DNA from: a virus
Length of the DNA: 64,000 bases
IMG/VR virus record: IMGVR_UViG_3300045988_096784
Strand: one strand, 5' to 3'
In this document: positions 18,520 through 35,291 of the stretch, in pieces
Layout: each line of letters begins with the position of its first letter
How positions within the stretch are numbered: the stretch's first letter is position 1
Translations under genes and position numbers: made by a program
Notes under the pieces: model-generated
What the model was told of the DNA's origin: nothing
The model's input: only the letters and a program-made list of their open reading frames with translations
The model's database searches: none

Positions 18520-18984
18520 TTACTCTACCAGTCGCCATAAGGCCGTAGGTAAATCTTCATGTGGCTCGATTGTTTCCCCTAAATGCCAACCATCCCGCAC
18601 ACTTTTATTATCGTCAATCAAAATAAAATTGCTAACCCCCGGCTCGAAGTATTTTCGCACACAGTTTGCTTTTGTTGTGCCATATTCCACAAGGTGGACT
18701 TTATGTGCGGGGAAGTTGTATTTTGCAAGCCAAGTGCGCTTTGCGTCACGGACAGCGGTTTTATATGAGTTAGAACTGTCTTTTGCAAGCCAACTGATAA
18801 CCCGAATTTCCCAGCCCTGTTCAATAAGTTTATTGAGAACGGTATTCAATTCTTCCATATCGCAAAGAGGTTTAGCGACTGTATATGGATAGGGGTTTTC
18901 ATTCATTAAATCTTTCAGCCATCCATCTACGCCGTACAGGTCAGCGATTGTTCCATCCATATCAAAGCAGAGCATCTTTTTCAT
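18520..18984 (-). CDS. HAD-superfamily hydrolase (5'-nucleotidase-like)
   Basis: N-terminal motif I LCFDMDGTIAD; length and C-terminal D-rich motif consistent with HAD phosphatases. Confidence 0.6.
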   Translation of the reverse strand: MKKMLCFDMDGTIADLYGVDGWLKDLMNENPYPYTVAKPLCDMEELNTVLNKLIEQGWEIRVISWLAKDSSNSYKTAVRDAKRTWLAKYNFPAHKVHLVEYGTTKANCVRKYFEPGVSNFILIDDNKSVRDGWHLGETIEPHEDLPTALWRLVE

Positions 18985-19183
18985 TTTGATTTACTTCCTT
19001 TCTTTAGGTTGATTAAAGTATATCAGATTTCGGGATAGAAAACAAGAGGCAAAATACACAAAATTTCGGTTGGAAAATTGTGCAACTTCTACAAAAGAGA
19101 AAATTCGGCGCGCCACGCACGTTAGCGCGCCGCCGAGAAACCTATTCAAAAAATGGGATAAAAAAGAGGGCTTCGGCCCTCTT

Positions 19184-19645
19184 TTAACTTTCACATATAT
19201 TTGCAAGAAATCTTGCAGAAAGTTTAACCATGTCATGGACAGATTCTTCGTTATTGCTATTTTTATAGCAAATAAAACCAACCTGGTCGCCATTCACAAG
19301 AATTGGTGTAATAAACATACTTTCCCATTTTGTCGCCGAACTGCGAATATCAATCCAGTCATCGGGAACCCTTGTAATTCCAAATGAACGCGGCCCGCAT
19401 AAAATTCCATCATTGTCAAAAATAGCCGCGGCGATTCTGTTAGATGAAAGGGCATTTTGCATTTGTTTAGCGTAAGAGGAAAATTCTCCCATTATAGAAT
19501 ATTTCTTAAAAACTACGCCGCCATCTTCTTCAAGAAAAATCTCTAATGGGTCGCCTTCTCTAATATGAAGGTTTCTACGGATTTCCTTTGGAATTACTAT
19601 CCGGCCCAAATCATCAATACGGCGCACAATTCCAGTAGCTTTCAT
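19184..19645 (-). CDS. AbrB/SpoVT-family transcriptional regulator (swapped-hairpin domain plus C-terminal domain)
   Basis: N terminus MKATGIVRRIDDLGRIVIPKEIRRNLHIREGDPLEIF is the AbrB/MazE/SpoVT barrel signature. Confidence 0.65.
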   Translation of the reverse strand: MKATGIVRRIDDLGRIVIPKEIRRNLHIREGDPLEIFLEEDGGVVFKKYSIMGEFSSYAKQMQNALSSNRIAAAIFDNDGILCGPRSFGITRVPDDWIDIRSSATKWESMFITPILVNGDQVGFICYKNSNNEESVHDMVKLSARFLANICES

Positions 19646-19697
19646 TTTTATCTGCGGGAGTGCAAGATTTATAGTCTTGCACTCCCTTCCTCCCTTC

Positions 19698-20090
19698 TTA
19701 ATCCAGTTCTTTCAACATCCGTTCGAGGTCAGCTTTAGTACCACCCAACTCAAGCGTAAGAATAATTTCCGTTACGGCATTTTTCTCCCAGTCGCTAACT
19801 TCCCGCATGGCCTTTTTCTTCTCGTTCTCCATAGCGGGGTAAATACAATCCTGGCAAGCCTCTACCAGCCGGTCATTATATCTGCGGAAACTCATCCCCT
19901 TGTTTTTAACCTCCGAAAGAAGTTCGTCGTTAAGGGCTTTTACCGCCTGCTTAACTTTCTCCTGCATGATTTTACACTCTGTCTCATAAGCGGAAAAGGT
20001 TTCATGGACAGCCTGCCTCTTGATTTCAGCCTTTACTCCAACTTCCTTTTCAATATACTCCCGAACAACCTTACTAACACGCATTTCCAA
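19698..20090 (-). CDS. hypothetical protein (130 aa)
   Basis: ORF; promoter TTGACA-17-TACAAT in minus orientation at about 20150-20185. Confidence 0.5.
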   Translation of the reverse strand: MEMRVSKVVREYIEKEVGVKAEIKRQAVHETFSAYETECKIMQEKVKQAVKALNDELLSEVKNKGMSFRRYNDRLVEACQDCIYPAMENEKKKAMREVSDWEKNAVTEIILTLELGGTKADLERMLKELD

Positions 20091-20179
20091 AACTTCCTTT
20101 CTTAATTTTAATTTTTATTTATCGGGGTCGCCCCTTCCATGGTCTTATTGTACCATAGTTGGGGCGATTTGTCAACCCC

Positions 20180-20332
20180 TTACATCAAAGTTTTTGCAAG
20201 ATACGCAAACATTAAAATCTCCGCCGCAAACATGATTTCAAGTCCTATGCAATCTCTTTCAATAGCGGCTACAAATTGCCATACCAGACATAGAACAAAA
20301 GCAATCAGAATTATCATGGTAAAAGTTGTCAT
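20180..20332 (-). CDS. small hydrophobic membrane protein (about 50 aa)
   Basis: Internal ATG with GGGGTGA ribosome-binding site; MTTFTMIILIAFVLCLVWQFVAAI. Confidence 0.4.
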   Translation of the reverse strand: MTTFTMIILIAFVLCLVWQFVAAIERDCIGLEIMFAAEILMFAYLAKTLM

Positions 20333-20336
20333 ATAC

Positions 20337-20594
20337 TCACCCCGCAAAGGAAACTTCCGCAAAGTTGATATTGAAACGCTCCCATTCACTTTCCATACCT
20401 AACATCATATCATGGAAAAGGTCATCACGATTTTCATATCCATCTTCTTCCAGAATAGCCTCCCATTCTCCATCGTCATATTGATTTTCCAGATAATCCA
20501 AAGCAGACTTGCGGGCGGCGATGGTATTAGACGCTACGCAGATAGGTTTATCGTCGTATCCGTCCGTGACCAAAATCATTTTCTTTTCTTCCAT
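20337..20594 (-). CDS. hypothetical acidic protein (about 85 aa)
   Basis: ORF trimmed to internal ATG with AAAGGAAAG ribosome-binding site. Confidence 0.45.
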   Translation of the reverse strand: MEEKKMILVTDGYDDKPICVASNTIAARKSALDYLENQYDDGEWEAILEEDGYENRDDLFHDMMLGMESEWERFNINFAEVSFAG

Positions 20595-20806
20595 GATTTT
20601 TTCTTTCCTTTCTTTCGAGGTGTTTCTGTCTCCCTCTTTCTGATAATAATATACCACAGGCAAAGCAGAAAGTCAAGCGATTTTAGGAAAAAATCTTTCG
20701 TCAGATTGCACAACAATTCGAGCCTAAAATTGTGCAAATTGCCTCTTGATAAAAAATTCCGGCCGCGCCTGTGGTGCACGGCCGGGCGAACGAATAAAAA
20801 AAAAGA

Positions 20807-20831
20807 ACCTCCTGAATTTCAGGAGGTCATT
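20807..20831 (-). terminator. rho-independent terminator aacctcctgaa-att-tcaggaggtt plus T9
   Basis: Stem followed by 9 T in minus orientation after stop of 20870-21103. Confidence 0.6.
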
Positions 20832-20869
20832 AATTTCTGCATACCAACAACTTCCTTTCTTTTGAGAAG

Positions 20870-21103
20870 TCAATCGGCATCTTCAACAATCTTTAATCCG
20901 TTTGCTTGGATAATTTTCATAGCTTCTTCAAGCGAGGAATCAACCGATCCGCAGTCGATACAGATATATTTTCTGCCATCTTTTACCATAGTAGTAAAAT
21001 AGTATTCTTGGCCAGAAACAAGGCCCATCTACTCTCGCAGTCTTACTGGAATCATGATACGCCCACTTGAATCTAATTTCCTTGAGAAAGTAGTTTCTTG
21101 CAT
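20870..21103 (-). CDS. second AbrB/MazE-type small DNA-binding protein (77 aa), one in-frame TAG
   Basis: MQETTFSRKLDSSGRIMIPVRLRE-TAG-MGLVSGQEYYF matches the swapped-hairpin motif; start without clear SD. Confidence 0.5.
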
Positions 21104-21509
21104 TTTGATAAATAAATTCTAGTGACCTAGGCTCGTGCGAAAAACGACTCCATCACGGGAATCGCCGATTTAGAACAATCGGAAGGAACATTTACCACTC
21201 GCAAGGCATTTTCTGGCAGAACTGAGACATAGGATAATTCTTGCAAGAATCCTAGTTCAAACAGAACTCCAAAATAACCGCAAGCGCTTTCAGCACTTCT
21301 AAGGTCATTAGAAAAACTCCTTTCTTTATTTTTCTATAATTATTATAATATATTTTTTTGAAAAAATCAATAGGGCCGGCATTACGCCAGCCCTAATCTC
21401 TGCAACCAAACCAGATGGTATTTACCAATGTGAAGTAGAACTGTGCCATATCCCTTATCCGTCCAGACAGTGGAGCCGATAGGATATGTGTGCGGTAAAC
21501 GCTCAATAC

Positions 21510-21725
21510 TCACTTTAGTTCCACCTCCTCGAAAGCTCCAATTTTTAGCAGATAATTATATAAGGCTCTATCTTGCTTGTCACCGGTATTAAAATCAAGT
21601 GTACGAACACAGCCGGTAACATTGGAATTGAGAGGATGACCCAAACACCAGCCAACCATATTACAAATTGTGTTTCCAAACTCCACAGACTTTTCTGCAC
21701 TTTCAAATTTAATAACAGCAATCAT
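21510..21725 (-). CDS. hypothetical protein (71 aa)
   Basis: ORF. Confidence 0.45.
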   Translation of the reverse strand: MIAVIKFESAEKSVEFGNTICNMVGWCLGHPLNSNVTGCVRTLDFNTGDKQDRALYNYLLKIGAFEEVELK

Positions 21726-21787
21726 ATTTATTCCTCCTTTTTATCGTGGGGAGTAGAGGTTTGTGGCCTCCACTCCCGCAAGTTTTC

Positions 21788-22027
21788 TTAATCATCTACA
21801 TAAATGATTAAATTGTTATCTCTTGCCTCAATGCCGGTTACCTGAAGTCCTAGAACCCATTCCTTAGATACCTCGATTACGTCTCCTCCCAGAGTTATTC
21901 TACCATCAGGTAATTCATGGTAATGAGCTTGGGTATTCTTATTGATAATTTCAAATCCCTCCCCGTCAAAGAACATAGTATCTTCTGCAAGCGGAGAAAG
22001 TAACCAAGCAACCATATCTAAAGTCAT
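21788..22027 (-). CDS. hypothetical protein (79 aa)
   Basis: ORF; promoter TTGACA-17-TGtTATTAT in minus orientation 22040-22075. Confidence 0.5.
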   Translation of the reverse strand: MTLDMVAWLLSPLAEDTMFFDGEGFEIINKNTQAHYHELPDGRITLGGDVIEVSKEWVLGLQVTGIEARDNNLIIYVDD

Positions 22028-22294
22028 TTTTTTTACTTCCTTTCAAATTCTTTTTGTGGCCTGTCCCTTTGGACAAGTATATAATAACACATGGCAAAAG
22101 GAATGTCAAGTAATTTCGGGAGAAAAACTTTCGTCGAATTGCACAGACTTTCGGTCATATAATTGTTGAAATTGCCGAATAAATAAAAATTCGGGCCGCG
22201 GCGCACGCTGGCGGCCCGGCGAAAAGTCAATATGGAAAAGTGCATAAAAATGACTGGCAATCTTTGTGTAGATTGCCAGTCAAGTATTATTCCT

Positions 22295-22528
22295 TTACAG
22301 CTCCATGGTTTCCATGAGATAGCCCGTGCCCATCGGCACCTCCCGCAGATTGCTGGGACTTATACGCAACTTATATTTCCTATTGATTTTATTCGCCGCA
22401 CTTGTCTTATCTCTTGCTTGGACAATTACTGGTATATGGAGTTTATTCAGAGTGGGCTTATTAAGACTGAAATATCCCATCTCTCTGCGCTTGCGGCCCA
22501 TGGCGTCGATATAAGTCCCTCTATACAT
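22295..22528 (-). CDS. hypothetical basic protein (77 aa)
   Basis: ORF followed by 12-bp hairpin terminator 22230-22262. Confidence 0.5.
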   Translation of the reverse strand: MYRGTYIDAMGRKRREMGYFSLNKPTLNKLHIPVIVQARDKTSAANKINRKYKLRISPSNLREVPMGTGYLMETMEL

Positions 22529-22684
22529 TTTTTTCCTCCTATTATTTAGTCATGAGAACGAACATATTATATTCGCTGTGCTGTGGGTTTGGCTCACAGT
22601 TATCCGCCACTATATCAGCCCAACTAAGAACTGCCCAGAGTAGGAGAGCGGCACAAATGCCGCCTCCTATCCGCTTAATAATTC

Positions 22685-22987
22685 TCATTTCCATTTCTTT
22701 GCCTCCTGTTCTTTAACCCATTCAGTACCGATTGTATCTCCGACCATAGCAACCTTATATTCGTCTTCGCTTGCAATTCTGGTATGCAGATTGCTATTGA
22801 TAAACTTTCTATTGATATAAGCCCAGTGTGGCATATAGGCCACTCGCATGGCATTAAAAGCATCCAGGTCTAAGATAATGCCGTCCTCTACCTCTGCGGA
22901 ACGCACATTCATCTTATACCGCAAAAGTTTAATAAATTCACGCTTTCTAAAAGTAGGCCCAACGAACCACTTAATATAATTGTTCAT
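22685..22987 (-). CDS. hypothetical protein (100 aa)
   Basis: ORF. Confidence 0.5.
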   Translation of the reverse strand: MNNYIKWFVGPTFRKREFIKLLRYKMNVRSAEVEDGIILDLDAFNAMRVAYMPHWAYINRKFINSNLHTRIASEDEYKVAMVGDTIGTEWVKEQEAKKWK

Positions 22988-23254
22988 AGTCTTTTATCCT
23001 TTCTCCCCGTATAGCCGTTAGGTCAGCTTCTTTTTAATCTACGATTTCTCCACTGGATAAATCCACAATCCAATGATTAGGATTGACTATCTCGTGACTG
23101 ACCTTCCATCTTGCCATTGAAAGGGTGGATGGTTCATAATAGCGCATTTTCTCATTGGCTAAAACTTGTAACTGATACATATAGTATGCCCCTTTCTTTT
23201 AATTATTATAACCCTGCCTTGCCTTGTGTTTTGCAAGGCAGGGTTTATAAACTG

Positions 23255-23629
23255 TTATCCTCTAATTTCTTCTTCTTGGGTCTTTGTCGCCCAATCAAAA
23301 GAGGTACGAACATCGGAAGGTCTGCGGAATTGCTCTGCTTCGGCTTTCGTTCCACCTAATGCCATAGCATAGGCTTTCCAGTCAACCGTTCCTTTTGCGG
23401 TAGTTTCTTTATATACCACCGCTTTCGCCTTACCCTGTATTTGTACCGTGCCATATAGATAACTTGTTTTGTCCGTAGCCTTAAAAGCCTTACCTAATCT
23501 GGAGAATAGCTCTTTAGCCTTAGCCTTAGCTGCTTTCTCCGCCGCCTCCGCCGCAGACTTAGCCATCTTAGCCGCCATATACTCCATAATAATGGCTCGA
23601 TCTTCATTGGTAAAATCAATCTTTTTCAT
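23255..23629 (-). CDS. hypothetical Ala/Lys-rich protein (about 124 aa)
   Basis: ORF trimmed to ATG with AAAGGGAG ribosome-binding site. Confidence 0.5.
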   Translation of the reverse strand: MKKIDFTNEDRAIIMEYMAAKMAKSAAEAAEKAAKAKAKELFSRLGKAFKATDKTSYLYGTVQIQGKAKAVVYKETTAKGTVDWKAYAMALGGTKAEAEQFRRPSDVRTSFDWATKTQEEEIRG

Positions 23630-24122
23630 ACTCTTTTGACTCCCTTTCTTTTTGTGGTGTGGTTCTCTTTTGTTCTGTCTGTATTGTATCAAACCTTTAG
23701 CAGTTTGTCAATACCTTTTTTGAAATTTTTTAATTTTCAAAGTGCCGTGCTTTTGTCTCTGTCCTACTGGACAAGTCCAGTTTACCACCAAAACACTCAC
23801 TTGTCAATAGTTTTTTTGAAATTTCTTTCTCTCTCTCTTGCACAAAATAAATAACATCTTGTTGTGCAGTTTGCACAAACCCTTTACGCGCGTATTCCTT
23901 TAGGGGCGTGCTTTCTTGCTTTCGTACTTTAACGAGTGAAAGAGGCCAACTACACTTCAATACTTTACCATGTGAAAGAGGGGCGCGTATTTTGGGAAAA
24001 ACTGGAAATTTTTTTGTAAAATCGTTCTGCCACGCCATTTCAAAATCTAAATCGACTTTTCAATCTCAATAACGAAAAAGAGAGAAGAACTCACTTCTTC
24101 TCTCCGCATTTACAATATAATC

Positions 24123-24365
24123 TTATCCATCGTCGGTTGCTTCAAAATTAAAAATCAAATTATATCCATCCTCAGTTTCTATCATTTCATATCCTTTTAA
24201 GATATATCCATCCTCTAGTTTAATATTAGTCGCATCAGATCTCCACATTGTAGGAATATACTCTAGCCTTGGATAACGATCGTTCTCCTTTCCGCAAGCA
24301 GTTAACAACAATACGATTAATATTATGTTAATTATAAAGCTGATACTTCTTCCCAATTTTATCAA
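24123..24365 (-). CDS. putative lipoprotein (signal peptide with lipobox LLTAC)
   Basis: TTG start after GGAGG; MIKLGRSISFIINIILIVLLLTACGK. Confidence 0.5.
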   Translation of the reverse strand: MIKLGRSISFIINIILIVLLLTACGKENDRYPRLEYIPTMWRSDATNIKLEDGYILKGYEMIETEDGYNLIFNFEATDDG

Positions 24366-24765
24366 TTTCTTCCGCCTCCATTGGCCTAAATCCAATACAC
24401 GTCAAAGTCCCTTCCGGGCCTTCACGCTCTAACTCCGTCCTACAAGCATCATAAATAAGCCAGTAGTCTTTATTCTCTTCCCATCCTAATTCTTTAGCCA
24501 TTGCAACAGCTTTTAGCAAATCATTCTTATTCTTCGCTCTACAAACTACTTTGGTCTCCGCTTCCGCTATCCAGTTATGGAATAAGTCTCTATCGAGGCT
24601 TATTCCTATATGATACATAAGACCGTCTCTTTCTTTAACAACTTCTTTACTTCCCCAATATAACTTTTCCAAAAGAAAAGCAATAGAAGCATGGGAAACT
24701 TGTGCGGCAAGTTTCCCTGGAGACATATTTAAATCTCGTCTTGCGATAATTAATTGCTTGAACAT
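24328..24765 (-). CDS. peptidyl-tRNA hydrolase, PTH2 family
   Basis: Signature MSPGKLAAQVSHASIAF near the N terminus and about 115-aa core typical of PTH2. Confidence 0.6.
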   Translation of the reverse strand: MFKQLIIARRDLNMSPGKLAAQVSHASIAFLLEKLYWGSKEVVKERDGLMYHIGISLDRDLFHNWIAEAETKVVCRAKNKNDLLKAVAMAKELGWEENKDYWLIYDACRTELEREGPEGTLTCIGFRPMEAEEIDKIGKKYQLYN

Positions 24766-25517
24766 TTTTCCAAAACCTCCAAGAAAATTCTAAAATTGCG
24801 GGAATTGCGGTCTGGAATTGCAAAATAAATATTTGGAATATTATAATTGCGGGCTGCGTTTACGAGCAAGGTAGCGACCGTTGATGGATCTTGCATAAAA
24901 ACACCACAACCCCAGGCTCCCGCGATTAAATTTTCCACTCCTTTAGCCTCGGCAATTTGATACATAAAATTAATTCTCTCTTCCATTATCCTATTGTTTA
25001 GAGAAAGAGGAACTTGCTGATAAGTATGTGCTGTTCTATAATTAGGAGAAGCACAAGTAATTACATCAGCTAATTTTCTACTATCGTCTTTTTCAAAGAC
25101 TACATCAGGAGTATAGATAGCTCTATCAAGATATAGGGCTCGATTCAGTCTCTGTCTATTCCATGCGTAATAAGTATCATCAAAAGCAAGAAGAATAGGG
25201 TAAAGGTTGCTTTCGTGACACAATGCCTCTTCTTGTGCAGAGCTGCCTCCAAGGAAGTAACCACCTGGATGTTTATAGCTTGCATAATTTAAGATCGCAG
25301 TCTTGCTCCGATCGGTTAAACCGAATAGACAGGATACACTATCTTGGTCTTTAAGATAAAAGGTATTATGGTGGGTTTCTCGCGGTTTTTGCGGAAAAGG
25401 AAGATTGGGGCCAAAAATTTCAGAGTTTATAATTGCGCGATCTGTATCTTCCTTGAGTCTCACTTTAATGTCTGCGTAATGCGATTGCGCGTGTTGTTTG
25501 AGCTCTTCTCGTTTCAT
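24750..25517 (-). CDS. bacterial-type poly(ADP-ribose) glycohydrolase-like macrodomain protein (DUF2263/TIGR02452-like)
   Basis: PARG signature GGYFLGGSSAQEE (GGG-X6-8-QEE) plus downstream AGAWGCGVF glycine-rich macro motif. Confidence 0.6.
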   Translation of the reverse strand: MKREELKQHAQSHYADIKVRLKEDTDRAIINSEIFGPNLPFPQKPRETHHNTFYLKDQDSVSCLFGLTDRSKTAILNYASYKHPGGYFLGGSSAQEEALCHESNLYPILLAFDDTYYAWNRQRLNRALYLDRAIYTPDVVFEKDDSRKLADVITCASPNYRTAHTYQQVPLSLNNRIMEERINFMYQIAEAKGVENLIAGAWGCGVFMQDPSTVATLLVNAARNYNIPNIYFAIPDRNSRNFRIFLEVLEKCSSN

Positions 25518-25742
25518 TTGCAGTTTCCTTTCTTCCGTGCGGTTGGGCAGAAGTGGATAATTTAATTATCCCAATCTTCAAATAAAGTGTGTAAACTATT
25601 TGTTTCCGCCGCCAATCTCTTTAAATATTCTTTAAGAATTTTATTTTCTTTAACTTTAATTGCATAATCGCAAGTATTGTCGCAGTCTGGTGTGTACTAC
25701 CGACCGAATCTATTATAACAATAATCAATACAAGGACACATT

Positions 25743-26183
25743 TTACTCATATTTACACCCATTCATTCTACAGTCTATCGTGCATTGCCCTGACGCTCCT
25801 TCACAAGGAATAGCATCAGGATAGTATTCAAAATAAGACGAGGTTAATAGAACTTCATACCCAAGTTCCCGCAGTATTCTCTCTGCGACATACCTATCTC
25901 TTAACTTAATCCATTCTTCTCTGTTTACTTTTGTTTCTCTATCTATTTGATTTGAGGTGTCTACATCCACAGTTATAGTTCCATCACTAATAGAGATGGC
26001 CTCATCCAACCTTCTAAACCATTTTTTAAAGGGATTTTGAATATGCAATATATCTTCAGCATATTTGTCAAAATCTTCCGAAAATTTCATTATCTTTGTG
26101 CCTGTTTCGCTAACTATAAACAATTTTTCATCAACCCCAATCTTGTTAATAGACCTACTCCTCCGGGGACAGGAGTTGACCAT
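25743..26183 (-). CDS. hypothetical protein, C-terminal Cys cluster; true start uncertain (overlaps folD end)
   Basis: ORF; C terminus CEGASGQCTIDCRMNGCKYE. Confidence 0.4.
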   Translation of the reverse strand: MVNSCPRRSRSINKIGVDEKLFIVSETGTKIMKFSEDFDKYAEDILHIQNPFKKWFRRLDEAISISDGTITVDVDTSNQIDRETKVNREEWIKLRDRYVAERILRELGYEVLLTSSYFEYYPDAIPCEGASGQCTIDCRMNGCKYE

Positions 26184-26875
26184 ACCTTATTTTTACTTGC
26201 AATTTCATCAATTTCTACAAAGTCTCCAAGAATAATTCCTGCTTCATTTCTACGAATACCAACATCTATAACAATAGCATTAGGACAGGCTTCTCTTGTT
26301 AAGCTAAATTTTCCTACCGCAGAGATAATTAAATCCGCTTGTCTTGTTAAATAGAGTTTTGTGTTTATATCTGTTTTACTGTGACACATTGATACGGTCA
26401 TATTTCTATCTAGAAGAGCTTTAGCCATTGGCTTTCCTACAATATCGCTTCTTCCCAAAACAACAGCAGATTTACCTTCGTAGTTAAAGCCACATTTATC
26501 CAAATAATCTATAATTCCTCTTACTGTTGCTGGAGTAATATTACTCATTGGATTTAATCCATCTGCATCTTTAGAAACAGGTATTTGATTATAATTGAAA
26601 TCAATCCCGTCTGCTATTGGCATTTGGACTATTACAGCATCCCAATCTTTCACATGGTCTAAGATCAATCTTAACTCTACTGAACTATTAGCTCTAAACA
26701 CTTCTGCTTCCCAACCAAGAGCGTTAAAGTCTTTTATTTTATTACGAATATAAATTTGATTTGCGGGATCCTAGGCTGTTGCGTCGATAATCATGAGTGA
26801 TGGAACATTACCACTAATCTCCCGCAATTTGTTTACCTATTGTTGAAAATATTCTTTTATATTAATCTATTGCAT
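26114..26875 (-). CDS. folD: bifunctional methylene-THF dehydrogenase/cyclohydrolase FolD, reads through 3 in-frame TAG
   Basis: C-terminal domain matches FolD throughout (GKSAVVLGRSDIVGKPMA, TPVPGGVGLLT). N-terminal 58 codons (MQ-TAG-INIKEYFQQ-TAG-VNKLREISGNVPSLMIIDATA-TAG-DPANQIYIRNKIK) align to the FolD N terminus only if the 3 TAG are sense. ATG 10 nt after GGAGG. Confidence 0.75.
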
Positions 26876-27194
26876 CTGGATCAAGCCTCCAAGGATCACT
26901 AGTATCGTAATCAATCATTTCATAGAAAGATATTTCATTTTCATTAACTTCTAATACCTAGTGAGGAATACACTATACTTCATAATCAAAATCTTTATTA
27001 ATATGGTAAGAAGTATATATATGAATAGCAATAGGTCTAGGATCATTAACTCCCTAAATATCCCATAAACTTATTGCTTTATTTTGGAAGATTTCCTAAG
27101 CATACTATGGAGATATAGCAATACTGATTATTAAGATATTAAAATAATACTATGCTTTTTCCGGTAAATCTAAATATGGTTCGTCAAAGAACAT
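26862..27194 (-). CDS. hypothetical protein (110 aa) carrying 8 in-frame TAG; first gene of the leftward transcript, stop overlaps folD start
   Basis: ATG after AGGAG; minus promoter TTGATT-17-TATAAT at 27232-27260; frame open only if TAG is sense; ends TAA within ATGCAATAG of folD. Confidence 0.45.
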
Positions 27195-27231
27195 TGGCAA
27201 ACAAATCTCCTATCTTATTTTTTATAATTAT

Positions 27232-27296
27232 ATTATAGCATTTTTAAATAAATTAATCAAATAAGATTTGACAATCTAGTTTTTTTTTGTTATTAT
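27232..27296. promoter_or_regulatory. divergent promoter region: leftward TTGATT-17-TATAAT and rightward TTGACA-17-TATTAT
   Basis: Back-to-back consensus elements separating the minus-strand block from the plus-strand late operon. Confidence 0.55.
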
Positions 27297-27320
27297 ATGA
27301 GTATAAAAGGAGATGACAGT

Positions 27321-28367
27321 ATGATAAAATTAGATTATACTATTGAGTCTCCAGAAGAACGGAAGGCGCTTGTCGAAAAAATAATCGCAGAAAATCCGAA
27401 CCTTAGTTCGAGTTATTTAGAAATATTAGCAGATTATTTAGTTCTATGTATGGAAAAGCAAGAGAAGAAAGAAAAGAATATATTAACAGATAATAGAATG
27501 GCTACTGTTAATAAAAGAGAATGTTCTTTCGAAGGGCTTGCGTCATAGATGGAAAATGGCGAGGATGGCATTTATGGTTTAATGTCAGAAAATAAAAATG
27601 TTATATTTTAGCCAAAGATTTCTATTACACAGAAAGATTTAGATACTATACCATGTTTAAAATAGTTGAGAGAAACCATTAATGTCTGGGAGGGCGCTTT
27701 AAAACGCGCTGCTGGGACAAAATAGGCATATATGATGAAAAAAGCATTAATAGAGATGCGAAAAGATTAGTATATCATTAAGCAAGCATATTAGAAACCT
27801 ATTATACCATGTAAATTAACGAGATCCGTAAGAACTCATATTCCTCTTGATGATTAGAGTTATCTTAATGGACAGGAGGTAGTAGTAAAGGGTATTTCGC
27901 TAATGGACGCCAATGTTGTTTCTGCTATTTTATGCAATTATTCAAAATTAAAAGAAGATAGTTATGATTAGTTTGAGGGAGATACATGGTATTTAATTCA
28001 ATCATTTGAAGAAATATGTGATAAAGCTCTTAAAGACTTTCCAATCTATTTACGAATTGTTGAACTCAAAATTGATAAAAAGTAGAATAACGAAATATAG
28101 GAAATATTAAAAAATGAGTTTGGTAAAACATATAGTGTTGAATATATTTCTAGCCTATGGAGAAATAAGATTCCTAAACTCATTGCGGAAGAGGCTTTAG
28201 AAGATTTTTTACGTTGGTAGTATAAACAAAAAGGATACCCAATGAAAAAATGTTCTAAGTGTGGGCAATTAAAGCCAGCCCATAATCAATTCTTTTCAAA
28301 GAATAAGACAAGCAAAGATAACTTATATAGTATCTGTAAGCGCTGTCGCAATAAGAAAAGAGGTTGA
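27321..28367 (+). CDS. hypothetical protein (about 348 aa), 12 in-frame TAG, C-terminal CxxC...CxxC zinc ribbon
   Basis: AAGGAG ribosome-binding site, ATG; one frame through 12 TAG to TGA. Confidence 0.55.
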
Positions 28368-28373
28368 TTATAA

Positions 28374-29543
28374 ATGAGCCATTATTGTAAAAAATGTGGT
28401 AAAACTATGGATGATACATAGTTTTATACATCAAAAAATTTAGAGAAGTATCCTCCAGATGGAAAGATGGATATTTGTAAAAAGTGTCTTACTATGCACG
28501 TAGATAACTGGGATCCAGAAACTTATAAATGGATTTTATAGGAGATTGACGTTCCATATATTAAAGAAGAATGGAATGGTTTATTGGAGAAATATGGAAA
28601 AGATCCAAAGAAGGTTACTGGATTAACTATTATTGGACGCTATTTATCTAAAATGAAATTAAAGCAATGGAATAAATACACTTGGGCAGATACAGAAACG
28701 CTAGAGAAAGATTCCATTGATAAAAAAGTTCTTAATATGAAAGCTCAAGGATTTACAGAAGATGAAATCCAAGAGCAGTTGTCTATTGATAGAACTCCTC
28801 CAAAACCAAAAGAATTAGAGGATGTTTAGGCCCCTGTAGGAACTCCAGAATATGAAGATCCAGAGGAAGATGATGATTTTGGTGATTAGCTAACCGAAGA
28901 AGATAAATTAGTATTACGTCTTAAATGGGGCCGCGGATATTCTTGGGAAGAAAGAGTAAGAATGGAGCAGCTTTACAATGATATGATGAGTTCTTATGAT
29001 ATTCAAGGAGCAGGCCATAAAGATACTCTTATTATGGTATGTAAAGCTAGTTTAAAAGCAAATTAGTTAATTGATGCTGGAGATATTGATGGCTTTTAGA
29101 AGATGCAAAAAGCCTATGATAGTTTAATGAAAAGCGGCAAATTTACGGCTGCTTAGAACAAAGGCGAATCCGGTGAATTTGTAGATTCAATAGGTGAATT
29201 AGTAGCCCTTTGCGAAAGAGAGGGTTTTATTCCTAGATATTATACGGAAGGACCCCAAGATAAAGTAGATAGAACTCTTTAGGATTTATAGCAATATACT
29301 CATACTCTAGTTACAGAGGAAATGAATCTTGGTAATATGATCGAAGCTTCGTTAAGAGAAATAGTTAAAGACAGAGAACGCGAGGCAAATATTGATGTTG
29401 AAGATAGCGATGAGGATGAAGATTTATTTAATTACGAGCATCCAGAATTAACAGAAGAAGATTATCAAGAGTATGAAGATATGAAAGAGTCGGAAAGAGA
29501 CAAAGATGAGGAAATGTTAAATAATATATTAAAGGAGGTTTAA
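28374..29543 (+). CDS. hypothetical protein (about 389 aa), N-terminal zinc ribbon, acidic C terminus, about 8 in-frame TAG
   Basis: Single frame to TAA at 29541-29543; last fragment matches ORF-track 29322-29543. Confidence 0.55.
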
Positions 29544-29546
29544 TAT

Positions 29547-31292
29547 ATGGCATTAAAAGATTTATTAAACCTTTCAAATAATAATAAGAAAATTGGTCTT
29601 TCCGAAGAAAGAGTTCGTGCGATAATTCCAGCAGCAAGATAGTATATAGCTTTTTGGAGAGAATATCCAGATATGTTTATTGACTTTTTGTAGACCGGCG
29701 GAGACGAGACAAGAAAAAAAGAAATTAATTTTTATTTTTATTAGAGAGTTTTCTTGCGGGCGGCCATGAGATATAAGTATGTATACATGGTATTTCCCCG
29801 TGCCTATTCTAAGTCATTCTTATCAGTAATGGTGCTTATGTGTAGATGTATATTATATCCTGGATGTAAGCTATTTATTACTTCTGGTGGAAAAGAACAG
29901 GCAGCAGGTATTGCAAAAGAAAAAGTCTAGGAAATTTGTAATGCGATTCCCGCACTTTAGAGAGAGATTGATTGGCGAAGAGGTAAGACTTAGGAAGGAA
30001 AAGATTATTGTAAGTATATCTTCAAAAATGGATCTTATTTTGACAACGTCGCGGCTAGAGAATCTTCTCGTGGTAAGCGTAGACATGGAGGATTAATTGA
30101 GGAGTGCGTTGGTGTAGATGGAGATATTTTAAATGAAGTTTTAATCCCTCTAATGAACGTTGATAGAAGATGTTTAGACGGATCTGTTCATGAAGAAGAA
30201 ACACTTAATAAATCTTAGATTTATGTAACTACTGCGGGGTGGAAAAACACATTCCCATATAATAAGTTGATTACTTTGCTAGTGCGCATGATACTAGAAC
30301 CCGAAAAGAGTATTGTAATGGGCGGAACATGGAGAATTCCTGTGCTAGTGGGATTGCAATCCCGCAACTTTGTATAGGAGTTAAAACAAGATGGTACATT
30401 TAATGAAGCATCATTTGATAGAGAGTATGAATCTAAATGGAGTGGCACCGTAGAAGATGCCTTCTTTAATGGTGATGCTTTTGATAGAAGTAGAAAATTG
30501 CTTTAGCCTGAATATGAATCTTCTGGGCGCTCTTCTGCTCAAGCATATTATGTTCTTTCTGTTGATGTAGGAAGAAAGAAATGTCAATCTGTTGTATGTG
30601 TATTTAAAGTAACCCCTCAGTCTCAAGGACCAGCGATTAAGTCTCTTGTTAATATATATACTATGGATGATGAACATTTTGAAGATTAGGCAATTAAGCT
30701 AAAAAGATTATATTATGATTATAAAGCTAAAATTATTGTTATTGACGGTAATGGACTTGGTGCTGGATTGATGGATTATATGGTTAAACCACAAATAGTG
30801 CCAGATACCAATGAAGTTTTTCCTGATTTTGGTGTAGCTAATGATGAAGATGGAGAATATAAACGATTTAGAACAGATAATACAGAATATGATGCTATTT
30901 ATGAAATTAAGGCAAATGCGCCAATTAATACCGAAGCCCATAGCAATGTTTAGACATAGTTGCGGGCTGGAAAGTTAAGATTTTTAATCGACGAAAAAGT
31001 TGCTAGAAATAAATTACTTGGTACCAAGAAAGGTCAAGCCATGAAACCAGAAGAGCGGGCAGAATATTTAAAACCATTCACTTTAACTTCTATATTAAGA
31101 GAAGAAATGCTAAATTTGCGAGAAGAAAATGAGGGTGTAAATATTATTTTAAAACAGGCAAATAAGTCTGTGCCCAAAGATAAATTCTCTGCGCTTGAAT
31201 ATGGATTATATTATATTAAATAGGAAGAAGATAGTAAACGCAAGCGTAAAAGTAGAAGATTTTCAGATTTTATGTTTATGAGTGAGGTGTAA
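29547..31292 (+). CDS. terL: terminase large subunit, about 12 in-frame TAG
   Basis: AAAGGAGG ribosome-binding site; ATPase motifs FPRAYSKSF (Walker A-like) and ESSRGKRRHGGLIEEC (Arg finger/Walker B). C-terminal nuclease region VIDGNGLGAGLMDYM; continuous frame to TAA. Confidence 0.75.
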
Positions 31293-31295
31293 GAT

Positions 31296-31652
31296 ATGAA
31301 GGCTAGTCGTGGAGAAATTAAAATTCATGAGATATTAGAGCAAAATGGCATGAACTTTAAAGAAGAGTATGAGTTTCCTGGGCTGAAAGCACCAAGTGGC
31401 AGGCCACTTCGTTTTGATTTTGCTGTTTTTGATGATGATGGAAATCTTGATTTTTTAATTGAGTATCAGGGTAAATAGCATTATTAGGCTGTTAGTAAAT
31501 TTGGTGGAAATAGAGGATTATACCAATAGAAATATAATGATAATCAAAAGCGTAGATTTTGTGCATTAAAAGGTATTACCCTCATTGAAGTTCCCTATAC
31601 GGAGGAAAATATCATCTCTTATGATTATTTAATGAGTAAAGCTGGATATTAA
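31296..31652 (+). CDS. DUF559/Vsr-like PD-(D/E)xK endonuclease-like protein (118 aa), 3 in-frame TAG
   Basis: RPLRFDFAVFDDDGNLDFLIEYQG-K-TAG-HY resembles the DUF559 core; sits between terL and portal. Confidence 0.45.
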
Positions 31653-31669
31653 CACCTGGAGGTGATATT

Positions 31670-33295
31670 TTGTTAAAACGTCGATAGGAAGAAATAAGAG
31701 CTAAAGGTTTTGATCTATTAGATCGAGGTATTATTACTCGTTATCAATAGGAAGAAGATTTTTTGAATTATGATACTGTTGATTATGCAAAAATGCGAGT
31801 TGGATTACGGTCTGTGGATGATGCGCTTATTAATCTAGGTACATATAAAAAGATAAATAGAAATTATGGAGATAAAAAGTTTGTATTAAATGCTATTTAT
31901 AAACATGATTACAAGACTTTAAGAGAGATTTCTAATTACTTTTATGAAAGTAGCGGTATTTATTATAGATTATGTAAATATTTAGCCTTCTTATATAGAT
32001 TTGATTGGTATATTACTCCATACACAGTAGATGCGTAGAAAGATAAAGATAAGTTATTAAAAGATTTTTCAAAGGTCTTGCTTTACCTTGATAAATCTAG
32101 TGTGAAGAGAATGCTTGGAAATATATCATTAGATATTATTAAAGAAGGAGCTTATTATGGTGTAATTGTTGATTTTGGAGATAGATTTGCAATTTAGAAA
32201 TTACCAGCTTCATATTGCAGAAGTAGATATTTCTAGGGCCCTAATCCAATAGTAGAATTAAATCTTTAGTTTTTTGACACTTATTTTGCCAATCCGCAAT
32301 ATAAAATCTAGATATTAAAGATTTTTCCACAGGATATTCAAAAGGCATATATTCTTTATAAACAGGGAAAATTAAAAGGGGATTATCCAGGTGATACTAC
32401 TGTATGGTATCCACTAGATCCTAGTATTTCTGTAAAGTTTAGTCTAAATGATAATGAATTTCCTTTTCTAGCTGGGGTTATTCCTTCTATTATTGATTTG
32501 GATCAAGCGCAAGAATTAGATCGTCAAAAGACAATGCAACAATTATTAAAAATTATTATTTAGAAGTTGCCTCTTGATAAAAATGGAGATTTGATTTTTG
32601 ATGTTGATGAAGCAAGGGATATTCATAATAATGCTGTAACTATGTTAAAACGAGCTATTGGTGTAGATGTATTAACAACTTTTGCAGATATTGAAAAAAT
32701 TGATACAAAAGATAATAATTCTAATACAACGACAGACGATTTAGAAAAAGTTGAACGTACAGTTTATAATAACTCAGGTGTAACTCATAATTTGTTTAAT
32801 GCAGATGGCAATATTGCAGTTACAAATTCTATTTTGACAGATGAATCTAGCGTAAGAGATATTCCTCTCATGTTTACAGATTTATTAAATCGAGTAGTAG
32901 AGAAATTTAATCGCAAAAATCATTATGAGTTTAGAGCGGAAATGTTAGAAACTACCTAGTTTAATTATAAAGAGTTATCTAAATTATATAAAGAGCACGC
33001 TCAACTGGGTTATTCTAAGATGTTGCCACAGATTGCTTTAGGTCACTCTCAATCGAGCATATTAGCTACATTAACATTTGAGAACGAAGTATTGAATTTG
33101 GCAGAAATTATGATTCCACCTATGAGTTCTAATACCAGAAGCGGAAAAGATTTGGGTAATAATAATTAGTCATCTAAAACTAATTCTTAGAATAAGTAGA
33201 CAAGTTCAACTAATACTAATGGAGCCGGCAGGCCCAAAAAAGAAGATGGCGAAAAGTCAGATAAGACAATAGCTAATCAAGAAAGTTCGTCATAA
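31670..33295 (+). CDS. portal protein, about 12 in-frame TAG
   Basis: TTG start 7 nt after GGAGGTG; about 541 codons; position after terL; fragments 31763-32038 and 32567-32959 in one frame. Confidence 0.65.
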
Positions 33296-33309
33296 AGGAG
33301 GGATTGAAC

Positions 33310-34569
33310 TTGCATATTAGTGTTCCCATTTTAAATACGATGGAATATATTTAGAACACTTAGATTTCTCCTCTAGTTAGTAAAGGTGTCTGCAAAGTTT
33401 GCTATGTTGGGTAGCAACCTAACCGCAACCATACTGTAATTACCAAAGAAGTGGCCGCGGAAATGGGACGTAAACTACCAGGAAGTCCTATTGTTGGATA
33501 TTTTAATCATGAAATAAATGATTTTGAAGGCCACAACAGAGAAATTATTGTTCGAGATGGTAAGTTTGCTATTGTTGATACCACAAGACCATATGGATTT
33601 GTTCCTACAAATGCAAATGTATGGTTTTAGAAGTTCAATGATGAAGGCGTAGAAAGAGAATATCTTGTGACAGATGTATACATTTGGACTAGCGTTTATC
33701 CAGAATCTAAAAGAATCCTGGAGAATGGCAATAACCATTCTATGGAATTGAATGAAGAAAATCAATCAGGATTTTGGACAAAAGATGATAAAACAAATGA
33801 AAGAATCTTTATCTACAATGAGGCATTGATTGAGAAATTATGTGTTCTCGGAGAAAATGTTGAGCCTTGTTTCGAGGGAGCTCAATTTAGTTCTCAATTT
33901 TCTTTAGAGAATAATCAAGAGTTTTAGAAACTTAAAACTATGATGTATTCTATGATGGATCAATTAAAAGAAACTTTAAATAAAGGAGGCTCTCAAGAAC
34001 CTATGGAGAATGAGAAGAAAGTACCTACTGATTTCGAGAAAAATACTCCAAATCCCGAAGAGGATAAGAAGAAAAAGACTTCTGAAAATCCTGCTCCAGC
34101 CCCAGAGGGAGAAAAAGAAAAGAAAAAGGATACTCCTCAAGGTAAGAAGTATAATCTTGAAGAAGTAACAGAATATACAGAGTTACTTACAAAGTTTACC
34201 GATTTAGAGACTAAATATTCTGCTCTTGAGCAAGAAAAAACTAATCTAGATAATGAAGTTACAGCACTAAGAGAATTTAAACTTAATGCTGAACGTCAAA
34301 GTAAACAACAAATGATTGATAGTTTCTATATGTTAAGTGATGAGGATAAGAAAGATGTCGCTGAGCATATTGATACTTATTCTTTAGATGATATTGAAGC
34401 TAAATTATCTATTCTTTGTGTTAGAAATAAAGTAAATTTCAATCTTGAAGAAAAGCATAAAGAAGAAGATAATACCCCAAAGGGACTTTTTAATTTAAAT
34501 AATCCAGAAACTGACAACGTTCCTGATTGGGTAAAAGCAATTCGTGAAACTGCTAAAAGCAGTATTTAA
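33310..34569 (+). CDS. putative prohead protease/scaffold fusion (coiled-coil C-terminal half), 6 in-frame TAG
   Basis: TTG after AAAGGAGGG; C-terminal half is charged heptad-like (ELLTKFTDLETKYSALEQEKTNLDNEVTALREF). Confidence 0.5.
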
Positions 34570-34582: not shown

Positions 34583-35272
34583 ATGGCTAAGAGTTCTAAA
34601 AGATTAGGTAATGCCACTTTTGTCCAGTATGGATATGGTCAAGTGGAGCCAAACCATCTTTCCGCTCCAAGAAATGGTCAAGTATATGCTCAGCTTCCCG
34701 CAGCTAGCGCTATTGAGATTCTTGAGAACGGTCAATTTGTAAAGTATGATTATGCAAAAGGCGTATGCGATTTTAGTACGGAAGCTACTTCTGGCGCCTG
34801 GATGATGGTATTTAATGAAGTAAAGATTTATAGAGATCGCGAAACTGATGCTGATTTTGCTATGATTAAGGATAATTATAATGCTCGTGTATATAGTCCA
34901 ATTGGACAAACAGTTTCTACACTTGCTACAATAAGTGATTATACCGGAGAAGCTGTACGCGAAGGTAGTGATGTAGCATATAAGAAAAATATGGAGACAT
35001 TTACTTATCCTGCATTGATGCCAGAAGGAACTAAAATGGTACCTCGCGTAATTAAGATTAGTATTGGTGATATTTGGACTACTAATACCATTAAAGCTAA
35101 TGCCGGAGAGCTTGCAGTAGGCGATCGTCTAAAGATTGATACTGATGGATATTTAACTAAAGATACTGAAACTTCTGCTAAAGGTGGAGATTTAGATCCT
35201 ATCTTTGCAGTAGTAAAAGTGTATACTATGCCAGATCTTCAACCTGGTGTAAAAGTACAGCGTGTAGGTTAA
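34583..35272 (+). CDS. capsid-associated structural protein (229 aa), no TAG
   Basis: AAGGAGG ribosome-binding site; codon usage of a highly expressed gene; between scaffold and major capsid protein. Confidence 0.6.
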   Translation: MAKSSKRLGNATFVQYGYGQVEPNHLSAPRNGQVYAQLPAASAIEILENGQFVKYDYAKGVCDFSTEATSGAWMMVFNEVKIYRDRETDADFAMIKDNYNARVYSPIGQTVSTLATISDYTGEAVREGSDVAYKKNMETFTYPALMPEGTKMVPRVIKISIGDIWTTNTIKANAGELAVGDRLKIDTDGYLTKDTETSAKGGDLDPIFAVVKVYTMPDLQPGVKVQRVG

Positions 35273-35291
35273 TTGGAAGGAGTGAAGAAGA

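What the first reader, a model, noticed from the sequence alone, without database searches (positions are those of the whole stretch)
26862..27320. Leftward operon opens with an extremely TAG-dense leader gene coupled to folD
From the divergent promoter the first leftward gene (26862-27194) carries 8 TAG in 110 codons. Its TAA stop overlaps the folD start inside ATGCAATAG, and folD itself then hits TAG at codons 3, 13 and 35. Expression of this operon is thus gated by suppressor availability at its very beginning, a possible timing or autoregulatory device.
Basis: inference. Interest (0 to 1): 0.6.

Follow-up and report, generated by a model that had tools for sequence, protein, structure and literature searches.

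The report
Amber-as-glutamine codons in two phage genes
The TAG "stops" at the head of this leftward gene cluster are glutamine codons of a gut phage that reads TAG as glutamine, so a small conserved protein and a FolD enzyme can only be made once the phage's suppressor tRNA is available; this is the phage's normal coding habit, not a special switch for the operon.

Summary
The ORFs are real, but some details are off. The "leader" (26862-27194, minus strand) has 6 in-frame TAGs, not 8. folD (26090-26875) has TAG at codons 3, 13, 35 and also 254. The two genes overlap by 14 nt.

The window comes from a TAG-to-Gln (code 15) phage of Firmicutes, distantly related to phAss-1. TAG supplies 49% of Gln codons in the late genes, interchanges with CAA/CAG in relatives, and is never used as a stop. 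A tRNA(CUA) lies about 15 kb beyond the window's left edge in 98-99% identical contigs.

The "leader" is not a leader peptide. It is a conserved 110-aa protein (dN/dS 0.11-0.15, about 80 clusters, confident predicted fold with no structural match found). Its TAG density is the highest in the window but not a statistical outlier. folD's TAG use is ordinary.

Relatives vary: leader 0-9 TAGs, folD 0-6. A non-recoded relative keeps the leader with CAA at the position of codon 15.

Downstream genes (PARG-like, PTH2) avoid TAG and have their own ribosome-binding sites. A terminator-like hairpin lies about 3 kb downstream, and many consensus promoters follow. Suppressor dependence therefore applies to the TAG-bearing genes, and perhaps the two coupled small genes, not to the operon. 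This matches the published recoding model.

The parts
27232..27260 (-). Leftward sigma70-like promoter, TTGATT-17-TATAAT with an extended -10 TG
   Evidence: Consensus scan. The same boxes are present upstream of the leader homologues in L097 and L098. Function is inferred.
27268..27296 (+). Rightward sigma70-like promoter, TTGACA-17-TATTAT with TG, back to back with the leftward one
   Evidence: Function is inferred.
27207..27211 (-). Shine-Dalgarno AGGAG of the leader gene. An in-frame TAG at 27210-27212 is part of it and is not coding.
   Evidence: Read from the sequence.
26862..27194 (-). 'Leader': a conserved 110-aa protein of unknown function. Six TAG (Gln) codons at 27150-27152, 27105-27107, 27096-27098, 27054-27056, 26973-26975 and 26958-26960.
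   Evidence: Homologues P0001-P0012. 82 cluster representatives at E<=1e-3. dN/dS 0.11-0.15. AF2 pLDDT 91.5. No Pfam, PHROG or PADLOC hit. No structural neighbour.
26886..26890 (-). Shine-Dalgarno GGAGG of folD, inside the 3' end of the leader gene, 10 nt before the ATG
26090..26875 (-). folD (methylene-THF dehydrogenase/cyclohydrolase), 261 aa. TAG (Gln) codons 3, 13, 35 and 254 at 26867-26869, 26837-26839, 26771-26773 and 26114-26116. It overlaps the leader by 14 nt.
   Evidence: Both Pfam FolD domains score above threshold. PDB FolD 3p2o matches at E=1e-36 over residues 6-258. Codon positions.
25743..26090 (-). g3: 115-aa protein of unknown function with 0 TAG. Its start overlaps the folD stop (TAATG) and it has no evident SD.
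   Evidence: Homologues follow folD or the leader in L097, L009 and L098.
25562..25750 (-). g4: small Cys-rich protein with 1 TAG. Its start overlaps the g3 stop (ATGAGTAA).
   Evidence: The L009 homologue has 2 TAGs.
24750..25517 (-). PARG-like macro-domain gene, TAG-free, with its own SD
   Evidence: Pfam PF10021. 0 TAG among 46 Gln codons in five lineages.
24328..24765 (-). PTH2-type peptidyl-tRNA hydrolase gene, TAG-free, with its own GGAGG
   Evidence: Pfam PF01981. SD.
24079..24105 (-). Terminator-like hairpin (11-bp stem plus T run). Probable end of the transcription unit that starts at the leader promoter.
   Evidence: The next near-consensus promoter is at 23711-23683. Function is inferred.
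27321..28367 (+). First rightward gene (PHROG 5767, annotated 'sigma factor'), with 11 TAGs. Together with the leader it marks the TAG-using block that straddles the divergent promoters.
   Evidence: No Pfam hit.

Best explanation
The window belongs to a large Firmicutes-type tailed phage that reads TAG as glutamine (genetic code 15). The TAGs in the 'leader' and in folD are ordinary Gln codons of that code.

The 'leader' is a conserved, folded 110-aa protein of unknown function. folD is an intact bifunctional FolD. Both belong to the class of genes in this phage that tolerate TAG, like the sigma-like gene, terminase, portal and tail genes across the divergent promoter. Full-length product therefore appears only when the phage tRNA(CUA) is active. 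That tRNA is encoded about 42 kb away on the same strand in near-identical genomes.

The dependence is gene by gene. It may extend through stop/start overlap to g3 and g4. It does not extend to the rest of the unit: PARG-like and PTH2 are TAG-free and have their own ribosome-binding sites. It also does not extend to the 24-kb leftward cluster, which has many promoters of its own.

Shown: the coding status, TAG = Gln, and the distribution and turnover of TAG. Inferred: the timing (TAG-free genes translated early, TAG genes later), following the published recoding model.
For: - Reading TAG as sense doubles the summed length of ORFs of at least 100 codons (about 38 to 76 kb) and yields a 2914-codon ORF.
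- Late genes carry 265 TAGs in 11,461 codons, which is 49% of Gln codons. Leftward genes carry 14 in 5,742, and 11 of those are in leader, folD and g4.
- Most TAG positions in TerL and about half of those in the sigma-like gene are CAA/CAG in relatives.
- TAG never terminates any of 32 leftward or 25 late ORFs.
- tRNA(CUA) is present in L101-L103 and L106. L102 is 99.3% identical to the window over the 2.1 kb where they overlap, and other loci from the same or sibling contigs are about 98% identical to it. The tRNA has a 1:72 mismatch and G73, as in tRNA-Gln.
- folD contains both Pfam domains, and TAG codons 13 and 35 lie inside the region that aligns to solved FolD structures.
- Leader: homologues exist, dN/dS is 0.11-0.15 with TAG read as Gln, AF2 pLDDT is 91.5, and the non-recoded homologue L160 has CAA at the aligned codon-15 position.
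- TAG counts vary among lineages. Leader: 9, 6, 5, 4, 4, 3, 3, 2, 2, 2, 1, 1, 1, 1, 0, 0. folD: 6, 6, 4, 0, 0, 0.
- The fraction of TAGs kept across all compared lineages is similar in sigma (1 of 15 TAG columns), TerL (2 of 23) and leader (1 of 7).
- The published model of recoding as a regulator of late genes is 10.1101/2021.08.26.457843. Code-15 relatives of this phage group are described in PMC10607447.
Against: - The leader uses TAG for Gln more than neighbouring late genes in most recoded lineages. Pooled over 14 non-independent lineages it is 44 TAG to 16 CAA/CAG, against 22-60% TAG in late genes.
- All 6 window TAGs are kept in L097 even though four-fold sites differ at 53%. Late genes keep 18 of 41 (one-sided Fisher P = 0.049). 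This hints at selection for TAG in this one gene rather than drift.
- The timing of transcription and of suppressor expression is not known.
- The suppressor gene was seen only in near-identical contigs, not in the window itself.
Confidence: 0.75

Rival explanations
1. Operon-level gate. Without the suppressor, ribosomes stop at leader codon 15 and folD codon 3. Loss of translation then shuts down the whole leftward operon by polarity or lost translational coupling, so the operon switches on only when the suppressor appears.
For: - Leader and folD are the promoter-proximal genes.
- Genes are tightly packed: leader/folD overlap by 14 nt, folD/g3 share TAATG, g3/g4 share ATGAGTAA, and g3 and g4 lack an SD.
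- In most recoded lineages a TAG-bearing leader homologue heads an otherwise TAG-free gene run.
Against: - Downstream genes avoid TAG strictly. PARG has 0 of 46 Gln codons as TAG across five lineages (P about 1e-12 at the late-gene rate), and the rest of the leftward cluster has 3 TAG against 145 CAA/CAG. That makes sense only if these genes are translated while TAG is still a stop.
- PARG and PTH2 have their own SDs.
- A terminator-like hairpin sits at 24105-24079, and about 19 near-consensus promoters lie downstream on the same strand.
- folD has its own GGAGG.
- In L012/L013/L017 folD has no TAG in the aligned gene.
- From general knowledge, not tested here: transcription and translation are largely uncoupled in Bacillus-type Firmicutes, which weakens nonsense polarity.
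Confidence: 0.1
2. Gene-specific timer under selection. TAG is actively kept, and nearly exclusive, in the leader so that this protein (with FolD, g3 and g4 through coupling) is made later than the TAG-free genes on the same transcript. That would be temporal control within one operon by codon choice.
For: - TAG supplies 6/7, 9/9, 4/4, 5/6, 4/5 and 3/3 of the leader's Gln codons in six lineages, against about 45-60% in their late genes.
- 6 of 6 TAGs are retained between the window and L097 despite 53% four-fold divergence.
- The codon-15 TAG is kept in all eight TerL-linked lineages that have Gln at that position.
- In L159 a TAG-free PARG follows the leader after a 19-nt gap, so the two are probably co-transcribed.
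Against: - The statistics are marginal (P = 0.04-0.1) and the lineages are not independent.
- Other homologues have few TAGs: L154 1 of 6, L158 1 of 3, L024 1 of 3.
- Codon 15 is not even Gln in many family members.
- Under AT pressure TAG is a mutational sink: leaving it needs T to C, or passes through TAA. Persistence therefore needs no selection (inference).
- TAG-free status can also reflect high expression, as in the major capsid protein gene.
Confidence: 0.2
3. The 'leader' is a regulatory leader peptide or attenuator, or a decayed non-coding remnant, and the TAGs are true stops.
For: It sits promoter-proximal, it is short, and under code 11 its frame is broken six times.
Against: - 110 codons are free of TAA/TGA in DNA of 28% GC.
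- The protein family is conserved, dN/dS is 0.11-0.15 and the predicted fold is confident.
- No terminator or antiterminator lies between it and folD, because they overlap.
- No Rfam element, including no THF riboswitch, is found in 24000-28500.
Confidence: 0.02

Closest known systems
Stop-codon recoding as a post-transcriptional regulator of late or lytic phage genes (Borges et al., bioRxiv 10.1101/2021.08.26.457843; experimental support for code 15 in PMC9523058)
   Same: TAG is read as Gln and the phage encodes tRNA(CUA). TAG-rich structural genes contrast with TAG-free presumed early genes. [quoted passage not shown]
   Different: Here the TAG-using block crosses a divergent promoter pair and includes a metabolic gene (folD) and a small unknown protein. 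These sit at the head of a unit whose distal genes are TAG-free, so the partition lies inside one apparent operon rather than between modules.
phAss-1 / proposed 'Phassvirus' group of code-15 gut phages (PMC10607447; OQ749652)
   Same: Large (about 100-150 kb) gut phages with TAG in terminase and virion genes, a long tRNA array and tRNA-Sup-CTA. Orthologues show variable recoding patterns between relatives. TerL is related (44% identity).
   Different: The relationship is distant and the window phage is not a member of that genus. No leader or folD homologue was looked for in phAss-1. In the window lineage the suppressor lies outside the main tRNA array, whereas the one phAss-1 suppressor located here lies inside its array.
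Classical amber nonsense polarity and translational coupling in bacterial operons
   Same: A premature TAG in a promoter-proximal gene, with overlapping stop and start codons (TAATG, ATGAGTAA), could lower translation of the next cistron.
   Different: Here the TAGs are sense codons in the phage's own code. The distal genes have their own SDs and avoid TAG, which argues that they do not rely on read-through.
Leader-peptide attenuation (trp/his type)
   Same: A promoter-proximal ORF enriched in one 'regulatory' codon.
   Different: This ORF is a 110-aa conserved folded protein, no alternative RNA structures were detected, and it overlaps the next gene. It does not work like an attenuator and is not one.
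Phage-encoded FolD auxiliary metabolic genes (tblastn hits in Lak megaphages, Enterococcus, Listeria and Staphylococcus phage records)
   Same: A full-length FolD with both domains carried by a phage. In non-recoded or distant relatives of this group, folD also sits next to the sigma-like/terminase divergent promoter (L058).
   Different: This copy carries four TAG codons. It is only 33-37% identical to the FolD sequences in the phage collection.

Membership tests
Code-15 (TAG to Gln) recoded phage genes | Reading through in-frame TAGs restores a full-length protein homologous to known families | tested here: met
   folD has both Pfam domains and aligns to PDB FolD over residues 6-258, spanning TAG codons 13 and 35. 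TerL, portal and others were recovered only with TAG read as sense.
Code-15 (TAG to Gln) recoded phage genes | TAG positions correspond to Gln (CAA/CAG) in relatives | tested here: met
   Shown for TerL, sigma-like and folD codon 3. Leader codon 15 is CAA in the non-recoded homologue L160.
Code-15 (TAG to Gln) recoded phage genes | Phage-encoded suppressor tRNA with anticodon CUA | tested here: met
   None among the 8 tRNAs in the window. Found in near-identical contigs at L102 17400-17475, about 15.3 kb beyond the window's left edge. Positive control on phAss-1. Presence in the window's own genome is inferred.
Code-15 (TAG to Gln) recoded phage genes | TAG is not used as a terminator | tested here: met
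   Stops are TAA 27 and TGA 5 in leftward ORFs, and TAA 20 and TGA 5 in late genes, with no TAG.
Code-15 (TAG to Gln) recoded phage genes | Temporal switch: TAG genes are translated only after suppressor expression | not testable with these tools
   Needs time-resolved proteomics or ribosome profiling.
Leader peptide / attenuator | Short ORF not conserved as a protein, followed by alternative terminator/antiterminator structures | tested here: not met
   110 aa, dN/dS 0.11-0.15, pLDDT 91.5. It overlaps folD by 14 nt, no terminator-like site lies between them, and there is no Rfam hit.
FolD (bifunctional methylene-THF dehydrogenase/cyclohydrolase) | Catalytic N-terminal domain and NAD(P)-binding C-terminal domain above the Pfam thresholds | tested here: met
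   PF00763 scores 38.3 bits (cut-off 32.8) and PF02882 scores 131.4 bits (cut-off 27). The motifs YIRNKIK, VQMP, DADG, GRSDIVGKP and PVPGGVG are visible in the alignment. Enzyme activity was not tested.
Operon gated by nonsense polarity | Expression of distal genes depends on translation through the proximal TAGs | not testable with these tools
   Indirect evidence argues against it: distal genes are TAG-free and have their own SDs, there is a terminator-like site, and many promoters lie downstream.
Proposed genus Phassvirus (phAss-1) | High nucleotide identity and synteny with phAss-1 (80-86% among the three genomes proposed for the genus, per PMC10607447) | tested here: not met
   Only a 58-nt megablast match. 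TerL is 44% identical.

The most novel reading that the evidence does not exclude
Selection keeps TAG as nearly the only Gln codon in the first gene behind an early-type promoter, while the genes co-transcribed behind it are kept TAG-free. The phage would then use codon reassignment to give genes within one mRNA different translation times. The small novel-fold protein, FolD, g3 and g4 would be made late and PARG/PTH2 early.
Probability: 0.2. Interest if true: 0.5.

Novelty: new member of a known kind. Interest (0 to 1): 0.25.

Why it matters
This finding mainly shows that standard-code gene calling breaks this region. The apparent run of stops is normal coding in a code-15 phage. It adds an example in which the recoded and non-recoded partition falls inside one apparent transcription unit rather than between modules, which could be used to test the published "code switch as timer" model with a simple reporter. 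It also defines a conserved small phage protein family (about 80 clusters at 50% identity) with a confident predicted fold and no match in the solved-structure and viral-model libraries searched, and it records a TAG-bearing folD as an auxiliary gene. None of this changes current understanding of recoding.

Tried and rejected
- Megablast of 20000-34000 against the GenBank phage collection found only a 58-nt match, which turned out to be a consensus promoter.
- An exact 41-nt pattern from the window's left end found nothing in IMG/VR.
- I walked leftward through relatives looking for the suppressor. The main array of about 27 tRNAs has no CUA anticodon. The suppressor turned up only after a further walk using the AAA-ATPase gene as anchor.
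- An odd tRNA-like gene with a 42-55-nt insertion (L096 4894-5010) was considered as a hidden suppressor. It was rejected because ARAGORN reads it as Lys(CUU) with an intron, on weak pairing.
- No theta/HDV-like ribozyme or other Rfam element lies near the suppressor. No riboswitch lies upstream of folD.
- The idea that the leader's conserved codon-15 TAG is special was rejected. Sigma and TerL have similarly conserved TAGs, and the position is not Gln in many family members.

Full report
**1. The observation**

On the minus strand, an ORF runs from the ATG at 27194 to a TAA at 26864-26862 (110 codons). It contains six in-frame TAGs, at codons 15, 30, 33, 47, 74 and 79. A seventh in-frame TAG lies upstream of the ATG inside the ribosome-binding region AGATAGGAG. 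Over all three frames the coding strand has 11 TAG trinucleotides.

folD starts at 26875 (ATG CAA TAG) and has TAG at codons 3, 13 and 35 as reported, plus codon 254. The leader's TAA ends 11 nt after the folD ATG (ATGCAATAGATTAA), so the overlap is 14 nt. folD has its own GGAGG 10 nt upstream of its ATG.

A promoter-like pair sits back to back between the two divergent units: TTGATT-17-TGcTATAAT leftward (27260-27232) and TTGACA-17-TGTATTAT rightward (27268-27296).

**2. The genome uses TAG as a sense codon**

- Treating TAG as sense doubles the summed length of ORFs of at least 100 codons and produces ORFs of up to 2914 codons.
- The plus strand from 27.3 kb onward encodes a PHROG 'sigma factor'-annotated protein, a YonG-like protein, the large terminase, a homing endonuclease, the portal, capsid and tail proteins.
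- Together these genes hold 265 TAGs in 11,461 codons, which is 49% of all Gln codons.
- In relatives found through the terminase (80 IMG/VR loci), most TAG positions of TerL and about half of those in the sigma-like gene are CAA or CAG, and the reverse also occurs. TAG therefore means Gln.
- TAG never ends an ORF in the window.
- The eight tRNAs in the window include no suppressor. Walking leftward through contigs that are 98-99% identical to the window showed that the array continues to about 30 tRNAs plus a tmRNA. About 7.6 kb past the end of the array there is a tRNA with anticodon CUA, a 1:72 mismatch and G73, as in tRNA-Gln (L102 17400-17475). ARAGORN detects the annotated phAss-1 suppressor, which serves as a positive control.
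- That position corresponds to about 15.3 kb beyond the window's left edge, about 42 kb from the leader, on the same strand.

The terminase is closest to Enterococcus phages VRE9_4, H1 and EF1, Geobacillus E3 and, at 44%, the code-15 gut phage phAss-1 (PMC10607447). The host is therefore probably a Firmicute.

**3. What the two genes are**

folD carries both FolD Pfam domains and aligns to solved FolD structures over residues 6-258. TAG codons 13 and 35 lie inside this conserved region at variable positions. Codon 3 is CAG/CAA in relatives.

The 'leader' is not a leader peptide.
- It has full-length homologues at 41-99% identity.
- A profile search finds 82 cluster representatives at 50% identity, with conserved motifs FFD, YYFNILV, PRP, PHxVVEV and DPW and an acidic tail.
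- dN/dS is 0.11-0.15 when TAG is read as Gln.
- AlphaFold with 48 sequences gives pLDDT 91.5.
- Its function is unknown.

**4. Is the TAG content exceptional?**

The leader has the highest TAG density in the window: 5.5% per codon, against 2.3% on average and 4.0% for the next highest gene. Six of its seven Gln codons are TAG. The binomial P is 0.043 before correction for about 68 genes, and Fisher P is 0.067 for TAG against CAA/CAG. folD (1.5% per codon; 4 of 13 Gln) is ordinary.

The striking contrast is with what follows. The leftward genes hold 14 TAGs in 5,742 codons, and 11 of these are in leader, folD and g4. g3, the PARG-like gene and PTH2 have none.

**5.

Close relatives at about 98% DNA identity keep every TAG, which is uninformative. 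More distant lineages differ.

| Lineage | Leader TAGs | folD TAGs |
|---|---|---|
| L097 | 9 of 9 Gln | 6 |
| L009 | 3 | 6 |
| L098 | 4 | no folD |
| L156 | 5 | no folD |
| L153 | 4 | not seen (1.5-kb contig) |
| L155 | 3 | not examined |
| L159 | 2 | no folD |
| L013, L017 | 2 | 0 |
| L012 | 1 | 0 in the aligned gene |
| L024, L154, L158 | 1 | L024: no folD; L154, L158: not seen (short contigs) |
| L157 | 0 | not seen (588-nt contig) |
| L160 (non-recoded) | 0 (CAA at the position aligned with codon 15) | none seen |

Sources.

In L012/L013/L017, folD codon 3 is CAG or CAA and codon 13 is GAG. In the non-recoded relative L058, folD itself is the first leftward gene, with no leader and no TAG.

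The TAGs therefore turn over as they do in late genes. One of 7 leader TAG columns is TAG in all lineages compared, against 1 of 15 in sigma and 2 of 23 in TerL.

One residual signal remains. The leader tends to use TAG for Gln more than its late-gene neighbours (pooled 44 to 16 in recoded lineages). All six window TAGs are retained in L097 although four-fold sites differ at 53%, whereas late genes retain 18 of 41 (one-sided P = 0.049). This is suggestive only, because the lineages share ancestry. Under AT pressure TAG is also hard to leave: the exit needs T to C or passes through TAA.

**6. Does it gate the operon?**

Arguments for a limited effect:
- g3 starts at TAATG on the folD stop.
- g4 starts at ATGAGTAA on the g3 stop.
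- Neither has an evident SD.

Their translation may therefore depend on ribosomes finishing folD, which requires suppression.

Arguments against gating of the whole operon:
- PARG-like and PTH2 have their own SDs.
- PARG has 0 TAG among 46 Gln codons across five lineages (P about 1e-12 at the late-gene rate), even where it directly follows a TAG-bearing leader (a 19-nt gap in L159). Such avoidance is expected only if the gene is translated while TAG is still a stop, or, as for the TAG-free capsid genes, if it needs very efficient translation.
- A terminator-like hairpin lies at 24105-24079.
- The next 23 kb on that strand carry about 19 near-consensus sigma70-type promoters. The 'leftward operon' is therefore many units, and the leader promoter serves about 3 kb at most.
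- Nothing links either gene to the suppressor, so autoregulation has no support.

**7. Verdict**

The TAG codons are real, but they are the normal Gln codons of a code-15 phage. Dependence on the suppressor is a property of each TAG-bearing gene. This is what the published model of recoding as a translational regulator of late genes proposes (10.1101/2021.08.26.457843). The variable recoding of orthologues among relatives matches what was reported for the phAss-1 group (PMC10607447).

The new elements are modest:
- the TAG-using block crosses a divergent promoter pair;
- it includes a metabolic gene and a small protein family with no structural match found;
- it sits in front of strictly TAG-free genes in the same apparent unit.

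Whether TAG is actively maintained in the leader as a timer within the operon remains open. I put that at about 0.2.

Noticed in passing
window 27268-28367 (+): The rightward (late) unit starts with a near-consensus sigma70-type promoter. Its first gene (PHROG 5767, annotated 'sigma factor'; no Pfam hit) carries 11 TAGs. Only about four such promoters lie in 28-64 kb. If this protein directs late transcription, the code switch would sit upstream of late transcription in a cascade.
   Followed up: partly
window 34583-36942, 40093-41484, 43052-43591 (+): Five genes inside the TAG-rich late block, including the probable major capsid protein at 35292-36344, have no TAG at all and higher GC (36-40% in four of the five). 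TAG avoidance may therefore track expression level as well as timing.
   Followed up: partly
window 780-23711 (-): About 19 near-consensus sigma70-type promoters (TTGACA/TTGAAA-17-TATAAT, many with an extended -10 TG) lie on the minus strand, including between the tRNA genes. This looks like an early region made of many short units. The 58-nt 93% match to phAss-1 (window 20124-20181) is one of these promoters.
   Followed up: partly
window 194-2125 (-); L086 12091-20932; L102 1-18534: In near-identical contigs the tRNA array continues beyond the window to about 30 tRNAs. It includes a tmRNA (L086 18745-19060, tag DNDYFENYLAA) and, after an AAA-ATPase gene and three TAG-bearing genes, a second small tRNA group with Ser(UGA), Sup(CUA), Leu(CAA) and Cys.
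   Followed up: partly
L096 4894-5010: A tRNA-like gene with a 42-55-nt insertion in the anticodon arm (Rfam tRNA 49.8 bits). ARAGORN with introns allowed reads it as Lys(CUU) with weak stem pairing. Its nature is unclear.
   Followed up: partly
window 24328-25517 (-); L156 7732-8286: A PARG-like macro-domain gene and a PTH2 peptidyl-tRNA hydrolase gene follow folD. A relative adds a SIR2-domain gene. These may act in ADP-ribose/NAD-related or translation-related counter-defence.
   Followed up: no
window 14000-24000: A segment with GC of 40-43% (2-kb windows; individual ORFs up to 48%), against 30-33% elsewhere. It is filled with small TAG-free ORFs on the minus strand and has many overlapping ORFs on both strands.
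   Followed up: no
window 31296-31652 (+): A homing-endonuclease-like gene (PHROG 9084/559) with 3 TAGs is inserted between the terminase and the portal.
   Followed up: no
window 43868-52423 (+): A giant 2851-aa ORF with 99 TAGs. It was not annotated here.
   Followed up: no
L052, L058, L160: Relatives with 59-74% identical sigma-like, YonG-like or terminase proteins have no TAG in those genes. Both recoded and standard-code members therefore exist within this phage group.
   Followed up: partly
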